From contig OZ059900.1 of assembly GCA_964057225.1 (NCBI GenBank), forward strand, positions 10,416,001 through 10,480,000: 64,000 nucleotides of DNA, in the 5' to 3' direction. Positions 11,008-50,611 of this stretch are shown one piece after another (the stretch's first letter is position 1; each line of letters begins with the position of its first letter). The position numbers were made by a program, and so were the translations under genes. Below the pieces are notes generated by a model. It was not told where the DNA came from, did no database searches, and saw only the letters and a list, made by a program, of their open reading frames with translations. Origin of the DNA: Auanema rhodensis (taxonomy: Eukaryota; Animalia; Nematoda).

Positions 11008-11051
11008 ATCAGCATCCACTCTCTACAAAGAAAACAGCACATATACTATAT
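11008..11051. repeat. Degenerate, internally deleted satellite monomer marking the left edge of the array
   Basis: Colinear monomer fragments atcagcat (11008-11015), tctaca (11022-11027), aaagaaaacagc (11027-11038) and acatata precede the clean match from about 11052. Confidence 0.6.
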
Positions 11052-13193
11052 ATATAATTAACTTCCATATGATTACGTACATTTCGGGAGAGTGAGATAT
11101 GGTTACCGAAAACTCGAATGATATACGGATATCACCATCATAGGCCATGTTGCATGATGTTATACAGTCAACTTCTCTGGTTCCTTTGCAATATTCCGTG
11201 AAAATCTTTCGCCTTTTACTAAAGATTTCCGTGCATAGGGACGCATATGAGTATCTTTCATTTTGGAATCCCCTCGAAAGAGCGGGACATCAGCATATCA
11301 AAGCTTCAGATATAACAGGGTTGTAATATCTACAGCCTTCTTTAAAGAAAACAGCGGATTCAAAAGAAATAAAATAAACTGTAGTTTGCTTTCATCTACA
11401 GTATGTATAGTTACATATATACATATAATTAACTTCCATATGATTACGTACATTTCGGGAGAGTGAGATATGGTTACCGAAAACTCGAATGATATACGGA
11501 TATCACCATCATAGGCCATGTTGCATGATGTTATACAGTCAACTTCTCTGGTTCCTTTGCAATATTCCGTGAAAATCTTTCGCCTTTTACTAAAGATTTC
11601 CGTGCATAGGGACGCATATGAGTATCTTTCTTTTTGGAATCCCCTCGAAAGAGCGGGACATCAGCATATCAAAGCTTCAGATATAACAGGGTTGTAATAT
11701 CTACAGCCTTCTTTAAAGAAAACAGCGGATTCAAAAGAAATAAAATAAACTGTAGTTTGCTTTCATCTACAGTATGAATAGTTACATATATACATATAAT
11801 TAACTTCCATATGATTACGTACATTTCGGGAGAGTGAGATATGGTTACCGAAAACTCGAATGATATACGGATATCACCATCATAGGCCATGTTGCATGAT
11901 GTTATACAGTCAACTTCTCTGGTTCCTTTGCAATATTCCGTGAAAATCTTTCGCCTTTTACTAAAGATTTCCGTGCATAGGGACGCATATGAGTATCTTT
12001 CTTTTTGGAATCCCCTCGAAAGAGCGGGACATCAGCATATCAAAGCTTCAGATATAACAGGGTTGTAATATCTACAGCCTTCTTTAAAGAAAACAGCGGA
12101 TTCAAAAGAAATAAAATAAACTGTAGTTTGCTTTCATCTACAGTATGTATAGTTACATATATACATATAATTAACTTCCATATGATTACGTACATTTCGG
12201 GAGAGTGAGATATGGTTACCGAAAACTCGAATGATATACGGATATCACCATCATAGGCCATGTTGCATGATGTTATACAGTCAACTTCTCTGGTTCCTTT
12301 GCAATATTCCGTGAAAATCTTTCGCCTTTTACTAAAGATTTCCGTGCATAGGGACGCATATGAGTATCTTTCTTTTTGGAATCCCCTCGAAAGAGCGGGA
12401 CATCAGCATATCAAAGCTTCAGATATAACAGGGTTGTAATATCTACAGCCTTCTTTAAAGAAAACAGCGGATTCAAAAGAAATAAAATAAACTGTAGTTT
12501 GCTTTCATCTACAGTATGTATAGTTACATATATACATATAATTAACTTTCATATGATTACGTACATTTCGGGAGAGTGAGATATGGTTACCGAAAACTCG
12601 AATGATATACGGATATCACCATCATAGGCCATGTTGCATGATGTTATACAGTCAACTTCTCTGGTTCCTTTGCAATATTCCGTGAAAATCTTTCGCCTTT
12701 TACTAAAGATTTCCGTGCATAGGGACGCATATGAGTATCTTTCTTTTTGGAATCCCCTCGAAAGAGCGGGACATCAGCATATCAAAGCTTCTGATATAAC
12801 AGGGTTGTAATATCTACAGCCTTCTTTAAAGAAAACAGCGGATACAAAAGAAATACAATAAACTGTAGCTTACTTTCATCTACAGTATGTATAGTTACAT
12901 ATATACATATAATTAACTTTCATATGATTACGTACATTTCGGGAGAGTGAGATATGGTTACCGAAAACTCGAATGATATACGGATATCACCATCATAAGC
13001 CATGTTGCATGATGTTATACAGTCAACTTCTCTGGTTCCTTTGCAATATTCCGTGAAAATCTTTCGCCTTTTACTAAAGATTTCCGTGCATAGGGACGCA
13101 TATGAGTATCTTTCTTTTTGGAATCCCCTCGAAAGAGCGGGACATCAGCATATCAAAGCTTCTGATATAACAGGGTTGTAATCAGCCTTCTTT
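11052..13193. repeat. 371-bp satellite, left mini-array (about 5.8 monomers)
   Basis: Exact 371-bp periodicity (ORF starts at 11263, 12005, 12376); ends at ...cagccttcttt running into a T-tract. Confidence 0.98.
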
Positions 13194-13222
13194 TTTTTTT
13201 TTTTTTTTTTTTTATTTTTTTT
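13191..13222. repeat. T23 homopolymer plus T-rich tail at the left junction of the island
   Basis: T run 13191-13213; reads as AATAAA-containing A-rich/poly(A) on the minus strand. Confidence 0.9.
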
Positions 13223-13876
13223 ATTTCTCCATTAACTTTTGTGAATAGAAAAGAGACTTCTTTTTCATTTGCTTCATGAATGTTATAATTAATTTCGTAT
13301 TAATTTTTAAATTGATTTAGGTTAAATGTTCATTGTCGTTACCTTGCGTGATCACGAAGATAAGTCTCACAATTCCGTTAAATTGGTATTTGAATCTGAG
13401 GTATGTTTTCCATTTATATTCATTTTCTCATTTATGTTTTCCATACATAAATACAATTCAGTGTTTTAGGCGACAATCCAGCAGCTTCAAGATAAAATTC
13501 TCACTAGTTTCCAAGTTGCGATACGTCGTCAAGAGATATTCGAGCGCAATGCTCGTCGCATCGATTTGTTAAATGGTTCATTGGAAAATGCAGGACTTCG
13601 AGATAATGAAACGTTGATTCTGGTTAGTTATTTTGACATGTAATTCTGACATTTTTAAAAGCGAGAACTAATTATTTTTCATTTTTCCTTTTCAAGTTAT
13701 CAAAGTAGAATTTCGGGGATAAATATAATAATTTTTGAGATTAAAAATTGTGTTAAACAATTCTTATACAGCTAGTGAATTTTATAACAGTTTTATTTTA
13801 AATTGTTGTTGCACAAAATTAAATATAAGCCCATGACTAATAGTGCATTTTAGAAACACAGTGGACTGCAAAATCT

Positions 13877-14536
13877 CAAAACATTAAAAAAACGTTTTCT
13901 TTCGGTGAGTTCCCTTTGTCTCTAGCATCAAGCTATAAAGACCTCGGAGTTTTAACAGACCAAAACTTATTATTTGGTAGTCACATCAACTATGTTAGCA
14001 ACTTGGCAGCTCAAAAATGCCGCACCATTCTGCGCTGTTTCCATTCCAGATTCCCGACTCTAATGTTTAGACTTTTTTGTTGTTATGTCCGCCCCATTCT
14101 GGAATACGCATCAGTAGTATGGTCACCTCAAGATGAAAAAAACAAAAGAAGTATCGAGAACGTTCAGAAAAAGTTTTTACGAGCTGTTTTCTGTAGAGCA
14201 GGTACTTTTGGCAGTTATTCCGATCAGCTCGGCATACTGCAAGCTCAAGAATTATCAACCAGACGCTTGGTAACCGATCTGATATTTTACTTCAACCATA
14301 TAAAAGACTCAAATACCGAGATACATTCTAGAATTTTTACGATCAAAAAGTTTTCTCACTCTCTTCGTACACACCAATGGAATATCGACTTTCCTAATCT
14401 TCGAAAAAACGCATCAAGAAATGAAATTGAATACAGAGCGATCAAGACAAGGAATTCTTTACCCGACAACTTGGTTAACCTTGAGAAAACCAAAAGCTTC
14501 AGAAAACACCTCTACAATACTCTACAAACACCATAA
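13877..14536 (+). CDS. C-terminal fragment of CR1-like ORF2 (region downstream of the RT catalytic core); no authentic start
   Basis: Stop-free frame ...KKTFSFGEFPLSLASSYKDLGVLTDQNLLFGSHINY...KSFRKHLYNTLQTP*; ORF track 13916..14536; no YADD motif or endonuclease present. Confidence 0.85.
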   Translation, partial: QNIKKTFSFGEFPLSLASSYKDLGVLTDQNLLFGSHINYVSNLAAQKCRTILRCFHSRFPTLMFRLFCCYVRPILEYASVVWSPQDEKNKRSIENVQKKFLRAVFCRAGTFGSYSDQLGILQAQELSTRRLVTDLIFYFNHIKDSNTEIHSRIFTIKKFSHSLRTHQWNIDFPNLRKNASRNEIEYRAIKTRNSLPDNLVNLEKTKSFRKHLYNTLQTP

Positions 14537-14798
14537 TGTGATCTAAATAATTAATACGAGTGTTAATTTGTTCACTTTTCATTTTGTTAATTATTTCTCT
14601 TTCCATAGTCATATCCTTGTTCTGTTTTTTTGTTCGTGACAATTAGCAACAGTTTCCTATTTTCATCCCTTCTTTACTCCTTTGTTACTTCGTTTCATAT
14701 CTTATAGACATGAGTCATACGGATTGAACGCAAGTTATCTCCTATTGTTAGAACGGGCTCGGCTCAACTTATGAGTACCTCCGTACCTAACAACCACC

Positions 14799-14837
14799 AA
14801 CAGGAGATCAGCTTTTATGCTGAACAAACCCCCTGTT
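14799..14837 (+). other. Stem-loop in the LINE 3' UTR
   Basis: aacagg..tcagc-ttttat-gctga..cctgtt nested inverted repeat. Confidence 0.45.
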
Positions 14838-15695
14838 TTCTATGAAAAAAAGGAACTGCTTACAAATATTCACTCTCAGATTAACTTATTATTTTATCCA
14901 CCCTTCATTTTTTTCAATGTTCTTATTGCATGGCTCTTACTCACGTAACTTCTCATTTGTACTAATACCGTTTAGCCTGTAATACTGAACAATAAACCAA
15001 TAAACCAAAACAAAATTGGGCAGCATGCTTAGTTTTGGCCGACAGTGTTGCACAGAAGAAGCCCGATCATTTAAAGGCTAGATTTGCTAAACGAGGATTT
15101 AAAAATTTAATCGACCTTGAAAATTGTGAATTCTTCGAGACGTATCCTTCTTTCGCTGATAAGTTCGTGGAGTTATCGACTGTGTTCGACCGTTTTATTA
15201 TTGGAGTTGAAGAGAACATCAAAATAGTGAGTATTTTTGACGGCACTTTATTGAGTCAATAATTGCAATTTCCAGGCTGTGGGATCCTACTTCAGAAAGT
15301 ATTTCGCTAATGAAGCTCTTTCAATTACATTTTCTCCAAAACCGGGACAGCGACTCGACCATCCTTCACTGAACATGATTATACAAAATTGGAAGCTGCT
15401 TGAAAATTTTACAAAGGCAACTGAGAGCATTGCGAATGATTGCAAGCGGATGGAGAACATTATTTGGAGAGATGGCTATGACGAATATTTGAAAGTGGTA
15501 TTGGAGAATATTAAGTTGTTCAATAATATGTTGTAAATAAAGGTAGCTTAATTTTGGTGTGGAGTTTTTGGGTGTCCCAGAAATCTAAGTTTTGTGAGTT
15601 GATGAAAAATCGCATTATTATTTCGAGATCAAGATTTGTTAATGGTTTTAAATTTTTCCCTAGTTTCATCATTTATTTAGCATTATTTTTATTCA

Positions 15696-15902
15696 CCGTT
15701 CAAGCGCATTTTTCTCGACCATTTCGACTATGGATTTCGACCACATTTTCAAGGTAGCGCATTTCGACCTTTTTACCATTTTTGAAAATTGTTTAAAATG
15801 ACACATTTTCGAAGAGTTGAGACACAAAATCAATCAAAATAAGCCTTAAAATGGCTTAAAAATGTCAAAAATGAAGGTGGTCGAAAAGGTGCGCTAGAAC
15901 GG
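15696..15902. mobile_element. 207-bp MITE-like element with imperfect 24-25 bp terminal inverted repeats
   Basis: Left ccgttcaagcgcatttttctcgacc (15696-15720); reverse complement of right end (15879-15902) is ccgttctagcgcaccttttcgacc; internal ttcgac repeats; no clear TSD (ttca / caaa flanks). Confidence 0.7.
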
Positions 15903-16179
15903 CAAAATACATATTATTAATAAACTGTAGTTTGCTTTCATCTACAGTATGTATAGTTACATATATACATATAATTAACTTTCATATGATTACATACATT
16001 TCGGGAAAGTGAGATATGGTTACCGAAAACTCGAATGATATACGGATATCACCATCATAGGCCATGTTGCATGATGTTATACAGTCAACTTCTCTGGTTC
16101 CTTTGCAATATTCCGTGAAAATCTTTCGCCTTTTACTAAAGATTTCCGTGCATAGGGACGCATATGAGTATCTTTCTTT

Positions 16180-19137
16180 TTGGAATCCCCTCGAAAGAGC
16201 GGGACATCAGCATATCAAAGCTTCAGATATAACAGGGTTGTAATATCTACAGCCTTCTTTAAAGAAAACAGCGGATTCAAAAGAAATAAAATAAACTGTA
16301 GTTTGCTTTCATCTACAGTATGTATAGTTACATATATACATATAATTAACTTTCATATGATTACGTACATTTCGGGAAAGTGAGATATGGTTACCGAAAA
16401 CTCGAATGATATACGGATATCACCATCATAGGCCATGTTGCATGATGTTATACAGTCAACTTCTCTGGTTCCTTTGCAATATTCCGTGAAAATCTTTCGC
16501 CTTTTACTAAAGATTTCCGTGCATAGGGACGCATATGAGTATCTTTCTTTTTGGAATCCCCTCGAAAGAGCGGGACATCAGCATATCAAAGCTTCAGATA
16601 TAACAGGGTTGTAATATCTACAGCCTTCTTTAAAGAAAACAGCGGATTCAAAAGAAATAAAATAAACTGTAGTTTGCTTTCATCTACAGTATGTATAGTT
16701 ACATATATACATATAATTAACTTTCATATGATTACGTACATTTCGGGAGAGTGAGATATGGTTACCGAAAACTCGAATGATATACGGATATCACCATCAT
16801 AGGCCATGTTGCATGATGTTATACAGTCAACTTCTCTGGTTCCTTTGCAATATTCCGTGAAAATCTTTCGCCTTTTACTAAAGATTTCCGTGCATAGGGA
16901 CGCATATGAGTATCTTTCTTTTTGGAATCCCCTCGAAAGAGCGGGACATCAGCATATCAAAGCTTCAGATATAACAGGGTTGTAATATCTACAGCCTTCT
17001 TTAAAGAAAACAGCGGATTCAAAAGAAATAAAATAAACTGTAGTTTGCTTTCATCTACAGTATGTATAGTTACATGTATACATATAATTAACTTCCATAT
17101 GATTACGTACATTTCGGGAGAGTGAGATATGGTTACCGAAAACTCGAATGATATACGGATATCACCATCATAGGCCATGTTGCATGATGTTATACAGTCA
17201 ACTTCTCTGGTTCCTTTGCAATATTCCGTGAAAATCTTTCGCCTTTTACTAAAGATTTCCGTGCATAGGGACGCATATGAGTATCTTTCTTTTTGGAATC
17301 CCCTCGAAAGAGCGGGACATCAGCATATCAAAGCTTAAGATATAACAGGGTTGTAATCAGCCTTCTTTAAAGAAAACAGCGGATTCAAAAGAAATAAAAT
17401 AAACTGTAGTTTGCTTTTATCTACAGTATGTATAGTTACATATATACATATAATTAACTTTCATATGATTACGTACATTTCGGGAGAGTGAGATATGGTT
17501 ACCGAAAACTCGAATGATATACGGATATCACCATCATAGGCCATGTTGCATGATGTTATACAGTCAACTTCTCTGGTTCCTTTGCAATATTCCGTGAAAA
17601 TCTTTCGCCTTTTACTAAAGATTTCCGTGCATAGGGACGCATATGAGTATCTTTCTTTTTGGAATCCCCTCGAAAGAGCGGGACATCAGCATATCAAAGC
17701 TTCAGATATAACAGGGTTGTAATATCTACAGCCTTCTTTAAAGAAAACAGCGGATTCAAAAGAAATAAAATAAACTGTAGTTTGCTTTCATCTACAGTAT
17801 GTATAGTTACATATATACATATAATTAACTTTCATATGATTACGTACATTTCGGGAAAGTGAGATATGGTTACCGAAAACTCGAATGATATACGGATATC
17901 ACCATCATAGGCCATGTTGCATGATGTTATACAGTCAACTTCTCTGGTTCCTTTGCAATATTCCGTGAAAATCTTTCGCCTTTTACTAAAGATTTCCGTG
18001 CATAGGGACGCATATGAGTATCTTTCTTTTTGGAATCCCCTCGAAAGAGCGGGACATCAGCATATCAAAGCTTCAGATATAACAGGGTTGTAATATCTAC
18101 AGCCTTCTTTAAAGAAAACAGCGGATTCAAAAGAAATAAAATAAACTGTAGTTTGCTTTCATCTACAGTATGTATAGTTACATATATACATATAATTAAC
18201 TTTCATATGATTACGTACATTTCGGGAGAGTGAGATATGGTTACCGAAAACTCGAATGATATACGGATATCACCATCATAGGCCATGTTGCATGATGTTA
18301 TACAGTCAACTTCTCTGGTTCCTTTGCAATATTCCGTGAAAATCTTTCGCCTTTTACTAAAGATTTCCGTGCATAGGGACGCATATGAGTATCTTTCTTT
18401 TTGGAATCCCCTCGAAAGAGCGGGACATCAGCATATCAAAGCTTCAGATATAACAGGGTTGTAATATCTACAGCCTTCTTTAAAGAAAACAGCGGATTCA
18501 AAAGAAATAAAATAAACTGTAGTTTGCTTTCATCTACAGTATGTATAGTTACATGTATACATATAATTAACTTCCATATGATTACGTACATTTCGGGAGA
18601 GTGAGATATGGTTACCGAAAACTCGAATGATATACGGATATCACCATCATAGGCCATGTTGCATGATGTTATACAGTCAACTTCTCTGGTTCCTTTGCAA
18701 TATTCCGTGAAAATCTTTCGCCTTTTACTAAAGATTTCCGTGCATAGGGACGCATATGAGTATCTTTCTTTTTGGAATCCCCTCGAAAGAGCGGGACATC
18801 AGCATATCAAAGCTTAAGATATAACAGGGTTGTAATCAGCCTTCTTTAAAGAAAACAGCGGATTCAAAAGAAATAAAATAAACTGTAGTTTGCTTTTATC
18901 TACAGTATGTATAGTTACATATATACATATAATTAACTTTCATATGATTACGTACATTTCGGGAGAGTGAGATATGGTTACCGAAAACTCGAATGATATA
19001 CGGATATCACCATCATAGGCCATGTTGCATGATGTTATACAGTCAACTTCTCTGGTTCCTTTGCAATATTCCGTGAAAATCTTTCGCCTTTTACTAAAGA
19101 TTTCCGTGCATAGGGACGCATATGAGTATCTTTCTTT
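16180..19137. repeat. 4-monomer higher-order repeat (1479 bp x2)
   Basis: Ordered variants ggaaagt / tttcat / catgtatac / gcttaaga+5-bp deletion recur at +1479 (3x371+366). Confidence 0.9.
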
Positions 19138-22100
19138 TTGGAATCCCCTCGAAAGAGCGGGACATCAGCATATCAAAGCTTCAGATATAACAGGGTTGTA
19201 ATATCTACAGCCTTCTTTAAAGAAAACAGCGGATTCAAAAGAAATAAAATAAACTGTAGTTTGCTTTCATCTACAGTATGTATAGTTACATATATACATA
19301 TAATTAACTTCCATATGATTACGTACATTTCGGGAGAGGGAGATATGGTTACCGAAAACTCGAATGATATACGGATATCACCATCATAGGCCATGTTGCA
19401 TGATGTTCTACAGTCAACTTCTCTGGTTCCTTTGCAATATTCCGTGAAAATCTTTCGCCTTTTACTAAAGATTTCCGTGCATAGGGACGCATATGAGTAT
19501 CTTTCTTTTTGGAATCCCCTCGAAAGAGCGGGACATCAGCATATCAAAGCTTCAGATATAACAGGGTTGTAATATCTACAGCCTTCTTTAAAGAAAACAG
19601 CGGATTCAAAAGAAATAAAATAAACTGTAGTTTGCTTTCATCTACAGTATGTATAGTTACATATATACATATAATTAACTTTCATATGATTACGTACATT
19701 TCGGGAGAGTGAGATATGGTTACCGAAAACTCGAATGATATACGGATATCACCATCATAGGCCATGTTGCATGATGTTATACAGTCAACTTCTCTGGTTC
19801 CTTTGCAATATTCCGTGAAAATCTTTCGCCTTTTACTAAAGATTTCCGTGCATAGGGACGCATATGAGTATCTTTCTTTTTGGAATCCCCTCGAAAGAGC
19901 GGGACATCAGCATATCAAAGCTTCAGATATAACAGGGTTGTAATATCTACAGCCTTCTTTAAAGAAAACAGCGGATTCAAAAGAAATAAAATAAACTGTA
20001 GTTTGCTTTCATCTACAGTATGTATAGTTACATATATACATATAATTAACTTTCATATGATTACGTACATTTCGGGAGAGTGAGATATGGTTACCGAAAA
20101 CTCGAATGATATACGGATATCACCATCATAGGCCATGTTGCATGATGTTATACAGTCAACTTCTCTGGTTCCTTTGCAATATTCCGTGAAAATCTTTCGC
20201 CTTTTACTAAAGATTTCCGTGCATAGGGACGCATATGAGTATCTTTCTTTTTGGAATCCCCTCGAAAGAGCGGGACATCAGCATATCAAAGCTTCAGATA
20301 TAACAGGGTTGTAATATCTACAGCCTTCTTTAAAGAAAACAGCGGATTCAAAAGAAATAAAATAAACTGTAGTTTGCTTTCATCTACAGTATGTATAGTT
20401 ACATATATACATATAATTAACTTCCATATGATTACGTACATTTCGGGAGAGTGAGATATGGTTACCGAAAACTCGAATGATATACGGATATCACCATCAT
20501 AGGCCATGTTGCATGATGTTCTACAGTCAACTTCTCTGGTTCCTTTGCAATATTCCGTGAAAATCTTTCGCCTTTTACTAAAGATTTCCGTGCATAGGGA
20601 CGCATATGAGTATCTTTCTTTTTGGAATCCCCTCGAAAGAGCGGGACATCAGCATATCAAAGCTTCAGATATAACAGGGTTGTAATATCTACAGCCTTCT
20701 TTAAAGAAAACAGCGGATTCAAAAGAAATAAAATAAACTGTAGTTTGCTTTCATCTACAGTATGTATAGTTACATATATACATATAATTAACTTCCATAT
20801 GATTACGTACATTTCGGGAGAGTGAGATATGGTTACCGAAAACTCGAATGATATACGGATATCACCATCATAGGCCATGTTGCATGATGTTATACAGTCA
20901 ACTTCTCTGGTTCCTTTGCAATATTCCGTGAAAATCTTTCGCCTTTTACTAAAGATTTCCGTGCATAGGGACGCATATGAGTATCTTTCTTTTTGGAATC
21001 CCCTCGAAAGAGCGGGACATCAGCATATCAAAGCTTCAGATATAACAGGGTTGTAATATCTACAGCCTTCTTTAAAGAAAACAGCGGATTCAAAAGAAAT
21101 AAAATAAACTGTAGTTTGCTTTCATCTACAGTATGTATAGTTACATATATACATATAATTAACTTCCATATGATTACGTACATTTCGGGAGAGGGAGATA
21201 TGGTTACCGAAAACTCGAATGATATACGGATATCACCATCATAGGCCATGTTGCATGATGTTCTACAGTCAACTTCTCTGGTTCCTTTGCAATATTCCGT
21301 GAAAATCTTTCGCCTTTTACTAAAGATTTCCGTGCATAGGGACGCATATGAGTATCTTTCTTTTTGGAATCCCCTCGAAAGAGCGGGACATCAGCATATC
21401 AAAGCTTCAGATATAACAGGGTTGTAATATCTACAGCCTTCTTTAAAGAAAACAGCGGATTCAAAAGAAATAAAATAAACTGTAGTTTGCTTTTATCTAC
21501 AGTATGTATAGTTACATATATACATATAATTAACTTTCATATGATTACGTACATTTCGGGAGAGTGAGATATGGTTACCGAAAACTCGAATGATATACGG
21601 ATATCACCATCATAGGCCATGTTGCATGATGTTATACAGTCAACTTCTCTGGTTCCTTTGCAATATTCCGTGAAAATCTTTCGCCTTTTACTAAAGATTT
21701 CCGTGCATAGGGACGCATATGAGTATCTTTCTTTTTGGAATCCCCTCGAAAGAGCGGGACATCAGCATATCAAAGCTTCAGATATAACAGGGTTGTAATA
21801 TCTACAGCCTTCTTTAAAGAAAACAGCGGATTCAAAAGAAATAAAATAAACTGTAGTTTGCTTTCATCTACAGTATGTATAGTTACATATATACATATAA
21901 TTAACTTCCATATGATTACGTACATTTCGGGAGAGGGAGATATGGTTACCGAAAACTCGAATGATATACGGATATCACCATCATAGGCCATGTTGCATGA
22001 TGTTCTACAGTCAACTTCTCTGGTTCCTTTGCAATATTCCGTGAAAATCTTTCGCCTTTTACTAAAGATTTCCGTGCATAGGGACGCATATGAGTATCTT

Positions 22101-25100
22101 TCTTTTTGGAATCCCCTCGAAAGAGCGGGACATCAGCATATCAAACTTCAGATATAACAGGGTTGTAATATCTACAGCCTTCTTTAAAGAAAACAGCGGA
22201 TTCAAAAGAAATAAAATAAACTGTAGTTTGCTTTCATCTACAGTATGTATAGTTACATATATACATATAATTAACTTTCATATGATTACGTACATTTCGG
22301 GAGAGTGAGATATGGTTACCGAAAACTCGAATGATATACGGATATCACCATCATAGGCCATGTTGCATGATGTTATACAGTCAACTTCTCTGGTTCCTTT
22401 GCAATATTCCGTGAAAATCTTTCGCCTTTTACTAAAGATTTCCGTGCATAGGGACGCATATGAGTATCTTTCTTTTTGGAATCCCCTCGAAAGAGCGGGA
22501 CATCAGCATATCAAAGCTTCAGATATAACAGGGTTGTAATATCTACAGCCTTCTTTAAAGAAAACAGCGGATTCAAAAGAAATAAAATAAACTGTAGTTT
22601 GCTTTCATCTACAGTATGTATAGTTACATATATACATATAATTAACTTTCATATGATTACGTACATTTCGGGAGAGTGAGATATGGTTACCGAAAACTCG
22701 AATGATATACGGATATCACCATCATAGGCCATGTTGCATGATGTTATACAGTCAACTTCTCTGGTTCCTTTGCAATATTCCGTGAAAATCTTTCGCCTTT
22801 TACTAAAGATTTCCGTGCATAGGGACGCATATGAGTATCTTTCTTTTTGGAATCCCCTCGAAAGAGCGGGACATCAGCATATCAAAGCTTCAGATATAAC
22901 AGGGTTGTAATATCTACAGCCTTCTTTAAAGAAAACAGCGGATTCAAAAGAAATAAAATAAACTGTAGTTTGCTTTCATCTACAGTATGTATAGTTACAT
23001 ATATACATATAATTAACTTCCATATGATTACGTACATTTCGGGAGAGTGAGATATGGTTACCGAAAACTCGAATGATATACGGATATCACCATCATAGGC
23101 CATGTTGCATGATGTTCTACAGTCAACTTCTCTGGTTCCTTTGCAATATTCCGTGAAAATCTTTCGCCTTTTACTAAAGATTTCCGTGCATAGGGACGCA
23201 TATGAGTATCTTTCTTTTTGGAATCCCCTCGAAAGAGCGGGACATCAGCATATCAAAGCTTCAGATATAACAGGGTTGTAATATCTACAGCCTTCTTTAA
23301 AGAAAACAGCGGATTCAAAAGAAATAAAATAAACTGTAGTTTGCTTTCATCTACAGTATGTATAGTTACATATATACATATAATTAACTTCCATATGATT
23401 ACGTACATTTCGGGAGAGTGAGATATGGTTACCGAAAACTCGAATGATATACGGATATCACCATCATAGGCCATGTTGCATGATGTTATACAGTCAACTT
23501 CTCTGGTTCCTTTGCAATATTCCGTGAAAATCTTTCGCCTTTTACTAAAGATTTCCGTGCATAGGGACGCATATGAGTATCTTTCTTTTTGGAATCCCCT
23601 CGAAAGAGCGGGACATCAGCATATCAAAGCTTCAGATATAACAGGGTTGTAATATCTACAGCCTTCTTTAAAGAAAACAGCGGATTCAAAAGAAATAAAA
23701 TAAACTGTAGTTTGCTTTCATCTACAGTATGTATAGTTACATATATACATATAATTAACTTCCATATGATTACGTACATTTCGGGAGAGTGAGATATGGT
23801 TACCGAAAACTCGAATGATATACGGATATCACCATCATAGGCCATGTTGCATGATGTTATACAGTCAACTTCTCTGGTTCCTTTGCAATATTCCGTGAAA
23901 ATCTTTCGCCTTTTACTAAAGATTTCCGTGCATAGGGACGCATATGAGTATCTTTCTTTTTGGAATCCCCTCGAAAGAGCGGGACATCAGCATATCAAAG
24001 CTTCAGATATAACAGGGTTGTAATATCTACAGCCTTCTTTAAAGAAAACAGCGGATTCAAAAGAAATAAAATAAACTGTAGTTTGCTTTCATCTACAGTA
24101 TGTATAGTTACATATATACATATAATTAACTTTCATATGATTACGTACATTTCGGGAGAGTGAGATATGGTTACCGAAAACTCGAATGATATACGGATAT
24201 CACCATCATAGGCCATGTTGCATGATGTTATACAGTCAACTTCTCTGGTTCCTTTGCAATATTCCGTGAAAATCTTTCGCCTTTTACTAAAGATTTCCGT
24301 GCATAGGGACGCATATGAGTATCTTTCTTTTTGGAATCCCCTCGAAAGAGCGGGACATCAGCATATCAAAGCTTCAGATATAACAGGGTTGTAATATCTA
24401 CAGCCTTCTTTAAAGAAAACAGCGGATTCAAAAGAAATAAAATAAACTGTAGTTTGCTTTCATCTACAGTATGTATAGTTACATGTATACATATAATTAA
24501 CTTCCATATGATTACGTACATTTCGGGAGAGTGAGATATGGTTACCGAAAACTCGAATGATATACGGATATCACCATCATAGGCCATGTTGCATGATGTT
24601 ATACAGTCAACTTCTCTGGTTCCTTTGCAATATTCCGTGAAAATCTTTCGCCTTTTACTAAAGATTTCCGTGCATAGGGACGCATATGAGTATCTTTCTT
24701 TTTGGAATCCCCTCGAAAGAGCGGGACATCAGCATATCAAAGCTTCAGATATAACAGGGTTGTAATATCTACAGCCTTCTTTAAAGAAAACAGCGGATTC
24801 AAAAGAAATAAAATAAACTGTAGTTTGCTTTCATCTACAGTATGTATAGTTACATATATACATATAATTAACTTCCATATGATTACGTACATTTCGGGAG
24901 AGTGAGATATGGTTACCGACAACTCGAATGATATACGGATATCACCATCATAGGCCATGTTGCATGATGTTATACAGTCAACTTCTCTGGTTCCTTTGCA
25001 ATATTCCGTGAAAATCTTTCGCCTTTTACTAAAGATTTCCGTGCATAGGGACGCATATGAGTATCTTTCTTTTTGGAATCCCCTCGAAAGAGCGGGACAT

Positions 25101-28100
25101 CAGCATATCAAAGCTTCAGATATAACAGGGTTGTAATCAGCCTTCTTTAAAGAAAACAGCGGATTCAAAAGAAATAAAATAAACTGTAGTTTGCTTTTAT
25201 CTACAGTATGTATAGTTACATATATACATATAATTAACTTCCATATGATTACGTACATTTCGGGAGAGTGAGATATGGTTACCGACAACTCGAATGATAT
25301 ACGGATATCACCATCATAGGCCATGTTGCATGATGTTATACAGTCAACTTCTCTGGTTCCTTTGCAATATTCCGTGAAAATCTTTCGCCTTTTACTAAAG
25401 ATTTCCGTGCATAGGGACGCATATGAGTATCTTTCTTTTTGGAATCCCCTCGAAAGAGCGGGACATCAGCATATCAAAGCTTCTGATATAACAGGGTTGT
25501 AATATCTACAGCCTTCTTTAAAGAAAACAGCGGATTCAAAAGAAATAAAATAAACTGTAGTTTGCTTTCATCTACAGTATGTATAGTTACATATATACAT
25601 ATAATTAACTTCCATATGATTACGTACATTTCGGGAGAGTGAGATATGGTTACCGACAACTCGAATGATATACGGATATCACCATCATAGGCCATGTTGC
25701 ATGATGTTATACAGTCAACTTCTCTGGTTCCTTTGCAATATTCCGTGAAAATCTTTCGCCTTTTACTAAAGATTTCCGTGCATAGGGACGCATATGAGTA
25801 TCTTTCTTTTTGGAATCCCCTCGAAAGAGCGGGACATCAGCATATCAAAGCTTCAGATATAACAGGGTTGTAATCAGCCTTCTTTAAAGAAAACAGCGGA
25901 TTCAAAAGAAATAAAATAAACTGTAGTTTGCTTTTATCTACAGTATGTATAGTTACATATATACATATAATTAACTTCCATATGATTACGTACATTTCGG
26001 GAGAGTGAGATATGGTTACCGACAACTCGAATGATATACGGATATCACCATCATAGGCCATGTTGCATGATGTTATACAGTCAACTTCTCTGGTTCCTTT
26101 GCAATATTCCGTGAAAATCTTTCGCCTTTTACTAAAGATTTCCGTGCATAGGGACGCATATGAGTATCTTTCTTTTTGGAATCCCCTCGAAAGAGCGGGA
26201 CATCAGCATATCAAAGCTTCTGATATAACAGGGTTGTAATATCTACAGCCTTCTTTAAAGAAAACAGCGGATTCAAAAGAAATAAAATAAACTGTAGTTT
26301 GCTTTCATCTACAGTATGTATAGTTACATATATACATATAATTAACTTCCATATGATTACGTACATTTCGGGAGAGTGAGATATGTTTACCGAAAACTCG
26401 AATGATATACGGATATCACCATCATAGGCCATGTTGCATGATGTTATACAGTCAACTTCTCTGGTTCCTTTGCAATATTCCGTGAAAATCTTTCGCCTTT
26501 TACTAAAGATTTCCGTGCATAGGGACGCATATGAGTATCTTTCTTTTTGGAATCAACTCGAAAGAGCGGGACATCAGCATATCAAAGCTTCTGATATAAC
26601 AGGGTTGTAATATCTACAGCCTTCTTTAAAGAAAACAGCGGATACAAAAGAAATAAAATAAACTGTAGTTTGCTTTCATCTACAGTATGTATAGTTACAT
26701 ATATACATATAATTAACTTCCATATGATTACGTACATTTCGGGAGAGTGAGATATGGTTACCGAAAACTCGAATGATATACGGATATCACCATCATAGGC
26801 CATATTGCATGATGTTATACAGTCAACTTCTCTGGTTCCTTTGCAATATTCCGTGAAAATCTTTCGCCTTTTACTAAAGATTTCCGTGCATAGGGACGCA
26901 TATGAGTATCTTTCTTTTTGGAATCCCCTCGAAAGAGCGGGACATCAGCATATCAAAGCTTCTGATATAACAGGGTTGTAATATCTACAGCCTTCTTTAA
27001 AGAAAACAGCGGATACAAAAGAAATAAAATAAACTGTAGTTTGCTTTCATCTACAGTATGTATAGTTACATGTATACATATAAGTAACTTCCATATGATT
27101 ACGTACATTTCGGGAGAGTGAGATATGTTTACCGAAAACTCGAATGATATACGGATATCACCATCATAGGCCATGTTGCATGATGTTATACAGTCAACTT
27201 CTCTGGTTCCTTTGCAATATTCCGTGAAAATCTTTCGCCTTTTACTAAAGATTTCCGTGCATAGGGACGCATATGAGTATCTTTCTTTTTGGAATCAACT
27301 CGAAAGAGCGGGACATCAGCATATCAAAGCTTCTGATATAACAGGGTTGTAATATCTACAGCCTTCTTTAAAGAAAACAGCGGATACAAAAGAAATAAAA
27401 TAAACTGTAGTTTGCTTTCATCTACAGTATGTATAGTTACATATATACATATAATTAACTTCCATATGATTACGTACATTTCGGGAGAGTGAGATATGGT
27501 TACCGAAAACTCGAATGATATACGGATATCACCATCATAGGCCATATTGCATGATGTTATACAGTCAACTTCTCTGGTTCCTTTGCAATATTCCGTGAAA
27601 ATCTTTCGCCTTTTACTAAAGATTTCCGTGCATAGGGACGCATATGAGTATCTTTCTTTTTGGAATCCCCTCGAAAGAGCGGGACATCAGCATATCAAAG
27701 CTTCAGATATAACAGGGTTGTAATATCTACAGCCTTCTTTAAAGAAAACAGCGGATTCAAAAGAAATAAAATAAACTGTAGTTTGCTTTCATCTACAGTA
27801 TGTATAGTTACATATATACATATAATTAACTTTCATATGATTACGTACATTTCGGGAGAGTGAGATATGGTTACCGAAAACTCGAATGATATACGGATAT
27901 CACCATCATAGGCCATGTTGCATGATGTTATACAGTCAACTTCTCTGGTTCCTTTGCAATATTCCGTGAAAATCTTTCGCCTTTTACTAAAGATTTCCGT
28001 GCATAGGGACGCATATGAGTATCTTTCTTTTTGGAATCCCCTCGAAAGAGCGGGACATCAGCATATCAAAGCTTCTGATATAACAGGGTTGTAATATCTA

Positions 28101-31100
28101 CAGCCTTCTTTAAAGAAAACAGCGGATACAAAAGGAATAAAATAAACTGTAGTTTGCTTTCATCTACAGTATGTATAGTTACATGTATACATATAATTAA
28201 CTTCCATATGATTACGTACATTTCGGGAGAGTGAGATATGTTTACCGAAAACTCGAATGATATACGGATATCACCATCATAGGCCATGTTGCATGATGTT
28301 ATACAGTCAACTTCTCTGGTTCCTTTGCAATATTCCGTGAAAATCTTTCGCCTTTTACTAAAGATTTCCGTGCATAGGGACGCATATGAGTATCTTTCTT
28401 TTTGGAATCAACTCGAAAGAGCGGGACATCAGCATATCAAAGCTTCTGATATAACAGGGTTGTAATATCTACAGCCTTCTTTAAAGAAAACAGCGGATAC
28501 AAAAGAAATAAAATAAACTGTAGTTTGCTTTCATCTACAGTATGTATAGTTACATATATACATATAATTAACTTCCATATGATTACGTACATTTCGGGAG
28601 AGTGAGATATGGTTACCGAAAACTCGAATGATATACGGATATCACCATCATAGGCCATATTGCATGATGTTATACAGTCAACTTCTCTGGTTCCTTTGCA
28701 ATATTCCGTGAAAATCTTTCGCCTTTTACTAAAGATTTCCGTGCATAGGGACGCATATGAGTATCTTTCTTTTTGGAATCCCCTCGAAAGAGCGGGACAT
28801 CAGCATATCAAAGCTTCAGATATAACAGGGTTGTAATATCTACAGCCTTCTTTAAAGAAAACAGCGGATTCAAAAGAAATAAAATAAACTGTAGTTTGCT
28901 TTCATCTACAGTATGTATAGTTACATATATACATATAATTAACTTTCATATGATTACGTACATTTCGGGAGAGTGAGATATGGTTACCGAAAACTCGAAT
29001 GATATACGGATATCACCATCATAGGCCATGTTGCATGATGTTATACAGTCAACTTCTCTGGTTCCTTTGCAATATTCCGTGAAAATCTTTCGCCTTTTAC
29101 TAAAGATTTCCGTGCATAGGGACGCATATGAGTATCTTTCTTTTTGGAATCCCCTCGAAAGAGCGGGACATCAGCATATCAAAGCTTCAGATATAACAGG
29201 GTTGTAATATCTACAGCCTTCTTTAAAGAAAACAGCGGATTCAAAAGAAATAAAATAAACTGTAGTTTGCTTTCATCTACAGTATGTTTAGTTACATATA
29301 TACATATAATTAACTTCCATATGATTACGTACATTTCGGGAGAGTGAGATATGGTTACCGAAAACTCGAATGATATACGGATATCACCATCATAGGCCAT
29401 GTTGCATGATGTTATACAGTCAACTTCTCTGGTTCCTTTGCAATATTCCGTGAAAATCTTTCGCCTTTTACTAAAGATTTCCGTGCATAGGGACGCATAT
29501 GAGTATCTTTCTTTTTGGAATCCCCTCGAAAGAGCGGGACATCAGCATATCAAAGCTTCAGATATAACAGGGTTGTAATATCTACAGCCTTCTTTAAAGA
29601 AAACAGCGGATTCAAAAGAAATAAAATAAACTGTAGTTTGCTTTCATCTACAGTATGTATAGTTACATATATACATATAATTAACTTCCATATGATTACG
29701 TACATTTCGGGAGAGTGAGATATGGTTACCGAAAACTCGAATGATATACGGATATCACCATCATAGGCCATGTTGCATGATGTTATACAGTCAACTTCTC
29801 TGGTTCCTTTGCAATATTCCGTGAAAATCTTTCGCCTTTTACTAAAGATTTCCGTGCATAGGGACGCATATGAGTATCTTTCTTTTTGGAATCCCCTCGA
29901 AAGAGCGGGACATCAGCATATCAAAGCTTCAGATATAACAGGGTTGTAATATCTACAGCCTTCTTTAAAGAAAACAGCGGATTCAAAAGAAATAAAATAA
30001 ACTGTAGTTTGCTTTCATCTACAGTATGTATAGTTACATATATACATATAATTAACTTCCATATGATTACGTACATTTCGGGAGAGTGAGATATGGTTAC
30101 CGAAAACTCGAATGATATACGGATATCACCATCATAGGCCATGTTGCATGATGTTATACAGTCAACTTCTCTGGTTCCTTTGCAATATTCCGTGAAAATC
30201 TTTCGCCTTTTACTAAAGATTTCCGTGCATAGGGACGCATATGAGTATCTTTCTTTTTGGAATCCCCTCGAAAGAGCGGGACATCAGCATATCAAAGCTT
30301 CAGATATAACAGGGTTGTAATATCTACAGCCTTCTTTAAAGAAAACAGCGGATTCAAAAGAAATAAAATAAACTGTAGTTTGCTTTCATCTACAGTATGT
30401 ATAGTTACATATATACATATAATTAACTTCCATATGATTACGTACATTTCGGGAGAGTGAGATATGGTTACCGAAAACTCGAATGATATACGGATATCAC
30501 CATCATAGGCCATGTTGCATGATGTTATACAGTCAACTTCTCTGGTTCCTTTGCAATATTCCGTGAAAATCTTTCGCCTTTTACTAAAGATTTCCGTGCA
30601 TAGGGACGCATATGAGTATCTTTCTTTTTGGAATCCCCTCGAAAGAGCGGGACATCAGCATATCAAAGCTTCAGATATAACAGGGTTGTAATATCTACAG
30701 CCTTCTTTAAAGAAAACAGCGGATTCAAAAGAAATAAAATAAACTGTAGTTTGCTTTCATCTATAGTATGTATAGTTACATATATACATATAATTAACTT
30801 TCATATGATTACGTACATTTCGGGAGAGTGAGATATGGTTACCGAAAACTCGAATGATATACGGATATCACCATCATAGGCCATGTTGCATGATGTTATA
30901 CAGTCAACTTCTCTGGTTCCTTTGCAATATTCCGTGAAAATCTTTCGCCTTTTACTAAAGATTTCCGTGCATAGGGACGCATATGAGTATCTTTCTTTTT
31001 GGAATCCCCTCGAAAGAGCGGGACATCAGCATATCAAAGCTTCAGATATAACAGGGTTGTAATCAGCCTTCTTTAAAGAAAACAGCGGATTCAAAAGAAA

Positions 31101-34100
31101 TAAAATAAACTGTAGTTTGCTTTCATCTACAGTATGTATAGTTACATGTATACATATAATTAACTTCCATATGATTACGTACATTTCGGGAGAGTGAGAT
31201 ATGGTTACCGAAAACTCGAATGATATACGGATATCACCATCATAGGCCATGTTGCATGATGTTATACAGTCAACTTCTCTGGTTCCTTTGCAATATTCCG
31301 TGAAAATCTTTCGCCTTTTACTAAAGATTTCCGTGCATAGGGACGCATATGAGTATCTTTCTTTTTGGAATCCCCTCGAAAGAGCGGGACATCAGCATAT
31401 CAAAGCTTCAGATATAACAGGGTTGTAATATCTACAGCCTTCTTTAAAGAAAACAGCGGATTCAAAAGAAATAAAATAAACTGTAGTTTGCTTTCATCTA
31501 CAGTATGTATAGTTACATATATACATATAATTAACTTCCATATGATTACGTACATTTCGGGAGAGTGAGATATGGTTACCGAAAACTCGAATGATATACG
31601 GATATCACCATCATAGGCCATGTTGCATGATGTTATACAGTCAACTTCTCTGGTTCCTTTGCAATATTCCGTGAAAATCTTTCGCCTTTTACTAAAGATT
31701 TCCGTGCATAGGGACGCATATGAGTATCTTTCTTTTTGGAATCCCCTCGAAAGAGCGGGACATCAGCATATCAAAGCTTCAGATATAACAGGGTTGTAAT
31801 ATCTACAGCCTTCTTTAAAGAAAACAGCGGATTCAAAAGAAATAAAATAAACTGTAGTTTGCTTTTATCTACAGTATGTATAGTTACATATATACATATA
31901 ATTAACTTTCATATGATTACGTACATTTCGGGAGAGTGAGATATGGTTACCGAAAACTCGAATGATATACGGATATCACCATCATAGGCCATGTTGCATG
32001 ATGTTATACAGTCAACTTCTCTGGTTCCTTTGCAATATTCCGTGAAAATCTTTCGCCTTTTACTAAAGATTTCCGTGCATAGGGACGCATATGAGTATCT
32101 TTCTTTTTGGAATCCCCTCGAAAGAGCGGGACATCAGCATATCAAAGCTTCAGATATAACAGGGTTGTAATATCTACAGCCTTCTTTAAAGAAAACAGCG
32201 GATTCAAAAGAAATAAAATAAACTGTAGTTTGCTTTCATCTACAGTATGTATAGTTACATATATACATATAATTAACTTTCATATGATTACGTACATTTC
32301 GGGAGAGTGAGATATGGTTACCGAAAACTCGAATGATATACGGATATCACCATCATAGGCCATGTTGCATGATGTTATACAGTCAACTTCTCTGGTTCCT
32401 TTGCAATATTCCGTGAAAATCTTTCGCCTTTTACTAAAGATTTCCGTGCATAGGGACGCATATGAGTATCTTTCTTTTTGGAATCCCCTCGAAAGAGCGG
32501 GACATCAGCATATCAAAGCTTCAGATATAACAGGGTTGTAATATCTACAGCCTTCTTTAAAGAAAACAGCGGATTCAAAAGAAATAAAATAAACTGTAGT
32601 TTGCTTTCATCTACAGTATGTATAGTTACATATATACATATAATTAACTTTCATATGATTACGTACATTTCGGGAGAGTGAGATATGGTTACCGAAAACT
32701 CGAATGATATACGGATATCACCATCATAGGCCATGTTGCATGATGTTATACAGTCAACTTCTCTGGTTCCTTTGCAATATTCCGTGAAAATCTTTCGCCT
32801 TTTACTAAAGATTTCCGTGCATAGGGACGCATATGAGTATCTTTCTTTTTGGAATCCCCTCGAAAGAGCGGGACATCAGCATATCAAAGCTTCAGATATA
32901 ACAGGGTTGTAATATCTACAGCCTTCTTTAAAGAAAACAGCGGATTCAAAAGAAATAAAATAAACTGTAGTTTGCTTTCATCTACAGTATGTATAGTTAC
33001 ATATATACATATAATTAACTTTCATATGATTACGTACATTTCGGGAGAGTGAGATATGGTTACCGAAAACTCGAATGATATACGGATATCACCATCATAG
33101 GCCATGTTGCATGATGTTCTACAGTCAACTTCTCTGGTTCCTTTGCAATATTCCGTGAAAATCTTTCGCCTTTTACTAAAGATTTCCGTGCATAGGGACG
33201 CATATGAGTATCTTTCTTTTTGGAATCCCCTCGAAAGAGCGGGACATCAGCATATCAAAGCTTCAGATATAACAGGGTTGTAATATCTACAGCCTTCTTT
33301 AAAGAAAACAGCGGATTCAAAAGAAATAAAATAAACTGTAGTTTGCTTTCATCTACAGTATGTATAGTTACATATATACATATAATTAACTTTCATATGA
33401 TTACGTACATTTCGGGAGAGTGAGATATGGTTACCGAAAACTCGAATGATATACGGATATCACCATCATAGGCCATGTTGCATGATGTTCTACAGTCAAC
33501 TTCTCTGGTTCCTTTGCAATATTCCGTGAAAATCTTTCGCCTTTTACTAAAGATTTCCGTGCATAGGGACGCATATGAGTATCTTTCTTTTTGGAATCCC
33601 CTCGAAAGAGCGGGACATCAGCATATCAAAGCTTCAGATATAACAGGGTTGTAATATCTACAGCCTTCTTTAAAGAAAACAGCGGATTCAAAAGAAATAA
33701 AATAAACTGTAGTTTGCTTTCATCTACAGTATGTATAGTTACATATATACATATAATTAACTTTCATATGATTACGTACATTTCGGGAGAGTGAGATATG
33801 GTTACCGAAAACTCGAATGATATACGGATATCACCATCATAGGCCATGTTGCATGATGTTCTACAGTCAACTTCTCTGGTTCCTTTGCAATATTCCGTGA
33901 AAATCTTTCGCCTTTTACTAAAGATTTCCGTGCATAGGGACGCATATGAGTATCTTTCTTTTTGGAATCCCCTCGAAAGAGCGGGACATCAGCATATCAA
34001 AGCTTCAGATATAACAGGGTTGTAATATCTACAGCCTTCTTTAAAGAAAACAGCGGATTCAAAAGAAATAAAATAAACTGTAGTTTGCTTTTATCTACAG

Positions 34101-50600: not shown

Positions 50601-50611
50601 TATCTTTCTTT
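44691..50611. repeat. Block duplication with 10-monomer (3700 bp) offset
   Basis: Rare variants recur at +3700: 44691/48391, 45089/48789, 45463/49163, 46170/49870 in the ORF track. Confidence 0.85.

What the first reader, a model, noticed from the sequence alone, without database searches (positions are those of the whole stretch)
13326..15536. Hidden spliced ubiquitin-like-domain gene inside a satellite array, recoverable only after removing the LINE
The ORF track shows only fragments. Joining three phase-0 introns and excising 13875-15016 gives a stop-free protein of about 239 aa: a ubiquitin-fold-like N-terminus (about 76 aa, no GG), then KHSGLQNWAACLVLADSVAQ...ITFSPKPG...EYLKVVLENIKLFNNML*. 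Seen: splice sites, frame, acceptor before ATG, AATAAA. Inferred: UBL fold. A complete intron-containing gene inside a satellite monomer points to DNA-level mobilisation. My unverified recollection is that nematodes have UBL-plus-atypical-kinase genes carried as cargo by Maverick/Polinton elements; no kinase catalytic motifs are visible here, so if related this copy would be internally deleted, possibly after FSPKPG.
Basis: partly seen in the sequence, partly recalled or inferred. Interest (0 to 1): 0.8.

Follow-up and report, generated by a model that had tools for sequence, protein, structure and literature searches.

The report
Decayed Maverick-cargo kinase inside U5 array
A broken copy of a roundworm ubiquitin-like-plus-kinase gene, of a family that virus-like Maverick transposons are reported to carry between species, sits inside a row of at least 136 U5 splicing-RNA genes; it has lost its catalytic core, is split by a jumping element, and likely got there by reverse transcription of a backwards (antisense) transcript.

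Summary
The gene model is real: GT-AG phase-0 introns, frame in register across a 1,142-bp insertion with a 6-bp duplication, 239 codons. The post-UBL pieces are 86-100% identical to a C. briggsae protein. Residues 153-298 of that protein, holding every catalytic motif, are missing here. An intact relative folds as ubiquitin plus a CtkA/HipA-like kinase, as published for KRMA. In C. briggsae the near-identical gene is annotated fused to a double-jelly-roll capsid domain. Two other organisms hold LINE-free, kinase-intact copies at 95-97.5% DNA identity. So this is a decayed, probably horizontally moved KRMA gene.

The 'satellite' is an array of 136 full-length U5 snRNA genes. The insert's ends (36 T in 39 nt at a TTT/AAA site, 29-bp target loss, no duplication) fit retrotransposition of an antisense RNA at least as well as DNA mobilisation. 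The scan earlier noted a U5 array in another genome; I found no earlier KRMA note.

The parts
11047..13193 (+). Left block of the U5 snRNA gene array (6 U5 genes, 371-bp unit); the last gene, 13027-13143, ends 50 nt before the insert
13188..13226 (-). T-tract (36 T in 39 nt, 23 pure): reads as a poly(A)-like tail on the minus strand, with AATAAA at its inner edge; joins the target at CTTCTTT/AAA, the only TTTAAA of the unit
   Evidence: longest A/T run in the 11-kb left flank is 10
13227..13325 (+). 5' flank with an acceptor-like TTTAG before the ATG; also covered by contigs of organism D
13326..13400 (+). Exon 1, UBL first part (25 aa)
13401..13469 (+). Intron 1, GT-AG, phase 0, 69 nt
13470..13622 (+). 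Exon 2, UBL second part (51 aa); 61-67% identical to C. briggsae, C. auriculariae and C. japonica UBLs
13623..13853 (+). Intron 2, GT-AG, phase 0, 231 nt (at the UBL/kinase module boundary)
13854..13874 (+). Exon 3, part before the LINE (KHSGLQN); ends in the first CAAAAT copy
13875..15016 (+). 5'-truncated LINE-like insertion: ORF remnant to 14536, (CAATAAAC)-type tail, 6-bp duplication; depth in run X1 rises towards the 3' end; no cover in runs X13 and X20
   Evidence: the LINE label rests on this anatomy and recalled motifs, not on a named database hit
15017..15226 (+). Exon 3, part after the LINE (helical linker, 70 aa), 86% identical to P0001 and P0002
15227..15275 (+). Intron 3, GT-AG, phase 0, 49 nt
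15276..15536 (+). Exon 4 with stop; in-frame deletion point at about 15345, where 146 residues of P0001 (153-298; about 575 nt in intact copies) have no counterpart
15660..15918 (.). High-copy repeat of unknown class with inverted arms 15696-15721 / 15878-15902; lies next to the gene also in organisms D and F; ends at or just short of the array junction
15919..64000 (+). Right block of the U5 array (130 U5 genes); it resumes 29 bp further on in a 366-bp unit variant, with no target duplication

Best explanation
This is a pseudogene of the KRMA family (ubiquitin-like domain plus CtkA/HipA-like kinase) that lacks its whole catalytic core, is interrupted by a LINE-like insertion, likely entered this nematode lineage as Maverick cargo, and was likely copied into the U5 snRNA array by retrotransposition of an antisense transcript. 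Step 1 (shown): family, deletion, insertion, U5 array. Step 2 (inferred, about 0.75): recent horizontal arrival in a Maverick, from 95-97.5% DNA identity with copies in differently labelled organisms, a swapped UBL module, and a capsid remnant beside the C. briggsae copy. Step 3 (inferred, about 0.55): a polyadenylated minus-strand RNA, starting in or beyond the 3' repeat and ending in the T-tract, was reverse-transcribed at a nick at CTTCTTT/AAA; an upstream second cut removed 29 bp, and + strand introns survived because the RNA was antisense. Step 4 (order unknown): the in-frame deletion and the LINE arose in this lineage. The copy is predicted to be inert: at most a UBL plus 23 residues before a stop in the LINE.
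For: Homology and deletion. In A2, 8 conserved positions (G178, K195, E213, Y217, I239, D277, N282, D295 of P0005; each in 31-37 of 33-39 rows) fall in the deleted interval. Fold of intact P0005 (pLDDT 83.7): ubiquitin-like 1-79 at Z 12-13, rmsd 1.3-1.5; residues 145-374 match HipA 4pu3 (Z 10.5, rmsd 4.6, 191 aligned) and CtkA 3akj (Z 10.5, rmsd 3.7, 184 aligned), two of the three neighbours Widen et al. name for KRMA-1. CBG06247 joins PF21738 (E 2.7e-13, above cut-off) to a segment 23/23 identical to exon 4a. Intact copies: X13 record 18 has 13 differences in 529 nt; X20 records 22-23 have 37 in 807 nt. C. briggsae and C. auriculariae share 132 of 146 core residues. The UBL and post-UBL trees disagree. 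Junction anatomy; target-site deletion is a described outcome of target-primed reverse transcription (PMC2881922).
Against: The donor locus was not seen, so the T-tract may be part of the donor's promoter rather than an added tail; the 5' flank is shared with organism D at least from 13240. No Maverick gene lies in the window. The one LINE seen here ends in CAATAAAC-type repeats with a duplication, not poly(A) with a deletion, so the enzyme responsible is not identified. The TTT/AA nick preference is recalled from mammalian L1, not shown for nematodes. No stranded RNA evidence. The window copy itself was not folded; its fold is inferred from relatives.
Confidence: 0.55

Rival explanations
1. 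Same decayed KRMA gene, but pasted as DNA into a double-strand break in the U5 array by microhomology-guided repair. The T-tract came with the donor and annealed to the target's T's; 29 bp were lost.
For: No duplication, small target loss, possible T microhomology on the left and AATAAA-like microhomology on the right; introns kept; the flanks are shared with other organisms, so a contiguous DNA block moved.
Against: The unit has longer T runs (T5, T4) on the same strand, yet the join is at its only TTT/AAA. A 23-T run is far longer than any in the 11-kb flank (maximum 10) and lies exactly at the junction, with AATAAA at its inner edge on the minus strand.
Confidence: 0.3
2. The kinase-less form was kept as a functional decoy (UBL plus helical scaffold), expressed by read-through from the U5 promoter 183 nt upstream, before or despite the LINE.
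For: The deletion is in frame and removes just the catalytic core; no other stop or frameshift; the gene is in sense 50 nt behind a U5 gene; snRNA read-through into downstream genes occurs in C. elegans when Integrator is impaired (PMC6390993).
Against: An in-frame deletion has a one-in-three chance. Lineage-specific changes among the listed rows are 6 non-synonymous to 3 synonymous, not different from neutral (P 0.26). The LINE gives a stop at 13923 and two AATAAA. U1- and U2-derived read-through RNAs were not translated.
Confidence: 0.07
3. The insert is itself a transposon insertion: a Maverick remnant, or an element (MULE, Helitron) whose end is the 3' repeat.
For: The 3' repeat is high-copy in all 4 runs laid and adjoins the gene in organisms D and F; it could be part of a vehicle end.
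Against: No matching terminal repeats at the two insert ends, no 5-8-bp duplication, target loss instead, no core genes.
Confidence: 0.05
4. An ordinary, vertically inherited host gene that decayed.
Against: About 90% identity between C. briggsae and the basal C. auriculariae over the kinase side while their UBLs share 30%; capsid remnant beside the C. briggsae copy; runs X13 and X20 have no cover of the host's multi-copy LINE at 82% likeness (weak for X20, which may be RNA).
Confidence: 0.03

Closest known systems
KRMA kinases, cargo of nematode Mavericks (Widen et al., bioRxiv 10.1101/2022.07.12.499685)
   Same: N-terminal UBL of about 73-76 aa, CtkA/HipA-like kinase fold in intact relatives, intron-containing gene, UBL swapped between kinase lineages, very high identity across species, capsid remnant beside the closest relative.
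   Different: This copy lacks the catalytic core, carries a LINE, has no Maverick gene nearby and sits in a U5 snRNA array with a T-tract and target loss. Its kinase lineage (about 374-385 aa) is only 26-27% identical to the 430-434-aa lineage that resembles the described KRMA-1.
C. briggsae L5515_011531 / L3Y34_004415 / CBG06246-06247 and C. auriculariae CAD6192090
   Same: 86-100% identity over the post-UBL pieces.
   Different: They keep the kinase core and have no LINE; UBL identity is only 57% (C. briggsae) and 19% (C. auriculariae).
msft-1 in C. briggsae (Maverick cargo re-captured by a MULE; same paper)
   Same: Maverick cargo moved a second time by another mechanism inside the new host.
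   Different: msft-1 is a functional protease toxin inside a DNA transposon; here the second move looks like retrotransposition or repair, and the gene is broken.
Processed pseudogenes / non-LTR trans-mobilisation with target-site deletion (PMC2881922)
   Same: Poly(A)-like tail at a T-rich nick, target deletion without duplication.
   Different: Introns are kept and the gene is antisense to the tail; the enzyme is not identified.
Tandem ncRNA gene arrays in germline-restricted DNA of Auanema rhodense (bioRxiv 10.64898/2026.08.27.747507)
   Same: Large nematode tandem arrays (units of 167-504 nt), including 5S, tRNA and U2 arrays.
   Different: The passages seen name U2, not U5, and give ncRNA density under 20%, against 117/371 = 32% here; whether this host eliminates DNA is unknown.

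Membership tests
KRMA kinases | N-terminal ubiquitin-like domain | tested here: met
   Window exons 1-2 match profile A2 positions 2-76 (E 9e-4 and 7e-11); that profile hits single ubiquitin chains at about E 3e-6; model of relative P0005 gives Z 12-13. The window's own domain was not folded.
KRMA kinases | CtkA/HipA/MavQ-like kinase fold in the intact protein | tested here: met
   P0005 model residues 145-374 match HipA 4pu3 and CtkA 3akj, both Z 10.5; Atlas neighbours are nematode 415-435-aa clusters and UBL-PI4K clusters.
KRMA kinases | Catalytic residues present (a working kinase) | tested here: not met
   The Lys, Glu, Asp-x-x-x-x-Asn and Asp-Phe positions all lie in the deleted interval. 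The copy descends from the family but is not a working member.
KRMA kinases | UBL module exchanged between kinase lineages | tested here: met
   The window UBL groups with P0106 (62%), whose kinase side is only 22-24% identical; P0002 has the window-type kinase (87-88%) with a UBL 92% identical to P0112 (12 rows per tree).
KRMA kinases | Maverick core gene within 6 kb (seen for 22.7% of KRMA genes, so typical, not required) | tested here: not met
   Window: the flanks are U5 array and one unassigned ORF pair; the capsid part of P0008 finds nothing; pPolB and integrase were not used as queries. Closest relative: capsid domain in the same gene model.
KRMA kinases | Extreme DNA identity, introns included, between distant species | tested here: inconclusive
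   95-97.5% identity to copies in organisms D and F, including intron and 3' flank, but the host and D are unnamed; 132 of 146 core residues between C. briggsae and C. auriculariae.
KRMA kinases | Listed in the published KRMA orthogroup (Data S2) | not testable with these tools
   The preprint's supplement was not seen; P0112 (430 aa, unnamed) matches the stated size of KRMA-1 but is not shown to be it.
Maverick/Polinton element | Terminal inverted repeats at both ends, 5-8-bp duplication, pPolB and integrase | tested here: not met
   definition from 10.1101/2023.08.22.554363.
Retrotransposed (TPRT) insertion | Poly(A)-like tail at one end | tested here: met
   36 T in 39 nt at the left junction, AATAAA on the minus strand at its inner edge.
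Retrotransposed (TPRT) insertion | Tail absent from the donor locus | not testable with these tools
   No nematode genome is held; scans of viral and metagenome contigs found no relative.
Retrotransposed (TPRT) insertion | Target duplication or small target deletion | tested here: met
   29-bp target deletion, no duplication; a deletion also fits DNA repair.
Classical processed pseudogene | Introns lost; tail at the gene's 3' end | tested here: not met
   Three introns kept; the tail lies at the gene's 5' side, on the opposite strand.
U5 snRNA gene array | Full-length U5 with invariant loop 1 | tested here: met
   136 hits, model 1-117, 69-76 bits against a cut-off of 40; loop 1 region identical in 136 of 136.
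U5 snRNA gene array | Sm site with A before the U-run, as in the Rfam consensus | tested here: not met
   1 of 136 copies (the edge copy, 11172-11288) has the A; 135 have a pyrimidine there. Expression and Sm binding are untested.

The most novel reading that the evidence does not exclude
Horizontally acquired Maverick cargo was re-mobilised inside the new host by retrotransposition of an antisense RNA, which kept its introns and dropped it directly behind a promoter of a 136-plus-copy U5 snRNA array. This would be a second, RNA-based route by which viral cargo leaves its vehicle, and it would mean that kept introns do not prove DNA-level transfer.
Probability: 0.4. Interest if true: 0.6.

Novelty: new member of a known kind. 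Interest (0 to 1): 0.4.

Why it matters
As a gene it is ordinary: one more decayed copy of a published, horizontally moving family of 532 annotated proteins. It adds three things. It defines a KRMA kinase lineage shared at 86-100% protein identity by this host, C. briggsae and C. auriculariae, with a different UBL in each. Its junction suggests an RNA-based second move of intron-containing cargo, which one look at the donor flank can test. And it exposes a nematode U5 snRNA array of at least 136 genes, 135 of them with a non-consensus Sm site; the paper searches turned up no nematode U5 array.

Tried and rejected
No whole genome is held, so paralogues in the host could not be searched. Pfam on the 4 exon pieces tested gave nothing at cut-off. 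Scans for related loci found none: viral contigs, metagenome contigs, and repeat patterns (0 matches each). The first fold, from 7 sequences, was unusable (pLDDT 46.5); the 39-sequence alignment was used instead. Foldseek gave ubiquitin plus weak kinase-like hits in the PDB and generic viral kinases and ubiquitins; only the wide VIA search listed CtkA and HipA. The host could not be placed: ORF 9562-10014 found nothing at E 10 among 249 candidates of 266-2000 aa, which is weak evidence. The LINE ORF got no named hit in Pfam, the PDB or the Atlas. No RNA holder was listed for the stretch, which says nothing on expression; X20 is only guessed to be RNA and its contigs keep introns. Only 4 of the 23 listed runs were laid, on the insert alone, so the array junctions and the T-tract were not checked in other samples. 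The idea that the deletion is a spliced-out cryptic intron fits poorly: the missing part begins at a codon for Asp in the relatives and spans their introns (inferred; their DNA letters were not seen). Clean splicing-out of the LINE finds no in-frame acceptor. The 3' repeat could not be assigned to a Maverick TIR, MULE, MITE or Helitron. PMC13370393 and PMC13511141 have no passage on snRNA arrays or Mavericks. Earlier-findings look-ups by sequence and place returned nothing.

Full report
OBSERVATION. The coding pieces are 13326-13400, 13470-13622, 13854-13874, 15017-15226 and 15276-15536. The three introns are GT-AG and phase 0, each piece is stop-free, and the frame is in register on both sides of a 1,142-bp insertion flanked by CAAAAT. 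The lengths sum to 239 aa. The insertion has an ORF remnant, a CAATAAAC-type tail and depth that rises towards its 3' end in run X1, as expected for a 5'-truncated LINE family. No database named it, so the label rests on anatomy and recalled motifs. As the locus stands, exon 3 runs into a stop at 13923 after 23 residues.

WHAT THE GENE IS. Exon 3b found two proteins among 39 candidates, from C. briggsae (P0001) and C. auriculariae (P0002), both 86% identical. Further relatives come from Auanema, Mesorhabditis, Panagrellus and C. japonica; a search with intact P0005 listed 97 proteins at E up to 0.001. I aligned 39 proteins chosen for length from these searches (A2). The conserved Gly, Lys, Glu, Asp-x4-Asn and Asp-Phe positions all fall inside the missing interval. 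The model of P0005 (pLDDT 83.7) gives a ubiquitin fold for residues 1-79 (Z 12-13, rmsd 1.3-1.5) and, for 145-374, HipA (Z 10.5, rmsd 4.6, 191 aligned), CtkA (Z 10.5, rmsd 3.7, 184 aligned) and actin-fragmin kinase. Widen et al. describe KRMA-1 as a 430-aa protein with a UBL at 1-73 and MavQ, CtkA and HipA as structural neighbours. An unnamed 430-aa protein (P0112) clusters with C. bovis and C. angaria proteins; its UBL is 92% identical to that of P0002, while its kinase side is 26-27% identical to the window's lineage. This module swapping is the pattern the paper reports. The window's UBL is 57-64% identical to its nearest UBLs but 87-94% identical to P0004 and P0002 after it, and the two trees (12 rows each) disagree.

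MAVERICK LINK AND TRANSFER. The C. briggsae gene model CBG06247 fuses a double-jelly-roll domain (PF21738, E 2.7e-13) to a segment identical to exon 4a. I read this as a capsid remnant next to the gene; the DNA was not seen. In 4 of 23 listed runs laid on the insert, organism D (X13) has one contig that skips the LINE and carries 575 extra letters at 15345, with 13 differences in 529 nt. Organism F (X20) shows the same two features with 37 differences in 807 nt, introns and 3' flank included. Of 15 listed codons where X20 changes the residue, 13 give the C. briggsae residue. Listed synonymous differences are 4 and 5 over about 94 sites; these are lower bounds, because 132 rows were not shown. 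X1 and X10 hold contigs across the deletion point with no difference, and X1 across the LINE's 5' junction, so these breaks are unlikely to be assembly errors (X1 may be the source sample). Changes private to the window are 6 non-synonymous to 3 synonymous, compatible with neutral drift (P 0.26).

THE ARRAY. The 371-bp repeat is not a plain satellite. Each unit holds a full-length U5 snRNA gene on the + strand: 136 hits at 69-76 bits, 6 left and 130 right of the insert. Among 111 full-length units, the U5 part has fewer variable sites than the spacer (7 of 117 against 34 of 254, P 0.03). Loop 1 is invariant, but only the edge copy has the consensus A before the Sm U-run (1 of 136). The insert begins 50 nt behind a U5 gene, in sense.

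HOW IT GOT THERE. The left junction is CTTCTTT followed by 36 T in 39 nt; the longest A or T run in the 11-kb flank is 10. The site is the unit's only TTTAAA, 29 bp of target are lost and nothing is duplicated. Read on the minus strand, the tract is a poly(A)-like tail with AATAAA at its inner edge. The right end lies in a high-copy repeat with inverted arms that also adjoins the gene in D and F. There are no paired termini and no 5-8-bp duplication, so this is not a Maverick integration (definition). Target-primed reverse transcription with an upstream second cut yields a target deletion (PMC2881922). An antisense RNA would not splice + strand introns (inference). I therefore favour retrotransposition (about 0.55) over DNA capture at a break (about 0.3). 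The donor flank decides and could not be fetched. A functional kinase-less decoy driven by U5 read-through is possible in principle (PMC6390993), but nothing here supports selection, and U1- and U2-derived read-through RNAs were not translated in that study.

KNOWN AND NEW. It works like, and descends from, KRMA cargo; it is not a working kinase and not a Maverick. The family, its transfer and its modularity are published. The antisense-retroposition reading and the U5 array are the parts I did not find in print (searches). The nearest report is 5S, tRNA and U2 arrays in Auanema rhodense. What I saw of each paper: Widen et al. preprint: abstract and outline, passages, sections 8, 9 and 11; its supplements, including the KRMA list, were not seen and bear on membership. 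PMC11414722, 10.1101/2023.08.22.554363, 10.64898/2026.08.27.747507 (supplementary Tables S3-S4 not seen and bear on the U5 claim), PMC6390993, PMC2881922, PMC13370393: passages only. PMC13511141: term search with no hit. The L1 nick preference and the LINE motifs are recalled.

VERDICT. Observation confirmed; interpretation partly supported. New member of a known kind; interest 0.4. The most novel open reading, RNA-based re-mobilisation of intron-containing viral cargo into an snRNA array, has probability about 0.4 and would merit about 0.6.

Noticed in passing
window 11047-64000: The 371-bp repeat is an array of at least 136 full-length U5 snRNA genes that runs off the window's right end; the U5 part is less variable than the spacer.
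   Followed up: partly
window 11172-11288 versus all other U5 copies: Only the edge copy has A before the Sm-site U-run; 135 of 136 have a pyrimidine there, so most copies may be variant or non-functional U5 genes.
   Followed up: partly
window 11047-64000: A 366-bp unit variant with a 5-bp spacer deletion recurs 23 times (against 111 of the long form) at irregular spacing; the insert sits in one of them.
   Followed up: no
window 15660-15918: High-copy inverted-repeat element shared at 82% likeness or more by all 4 runs laid (organisms A, C, D, F); class unknown; it may itself move between species.
   Followed up: partly
window 15902-15935: The insert's last 17 nt pair with the adjoining array sequence (20-nt arms, 85% complementary): chance or junction templating.
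   Followed up: no
window 9214-10800: A probable spliced host gene beside the array; one ORF piece found no homologue.
   Followed up: partly
window 13510-13869 in run X13: Organism D holds several further, partly deleted copies of the UBL and intron-2 region (joints 13266>13719, 13315>13530).
   Followed up: no
P0010 (C. auriculariae CAD6196242): A UBL of the C. briggsae type is annotated fused to a cuticle collagen: probably another cargo remnant merged into a neighbouring gene model.
   Followed up: no
run X20 against the window, exons 3b-4: Changes private to the C. briggsae-type copy are 11 non-synonymous to 1 synonymous among listed rows, so that copy may also be drifting.
   Followed up: no
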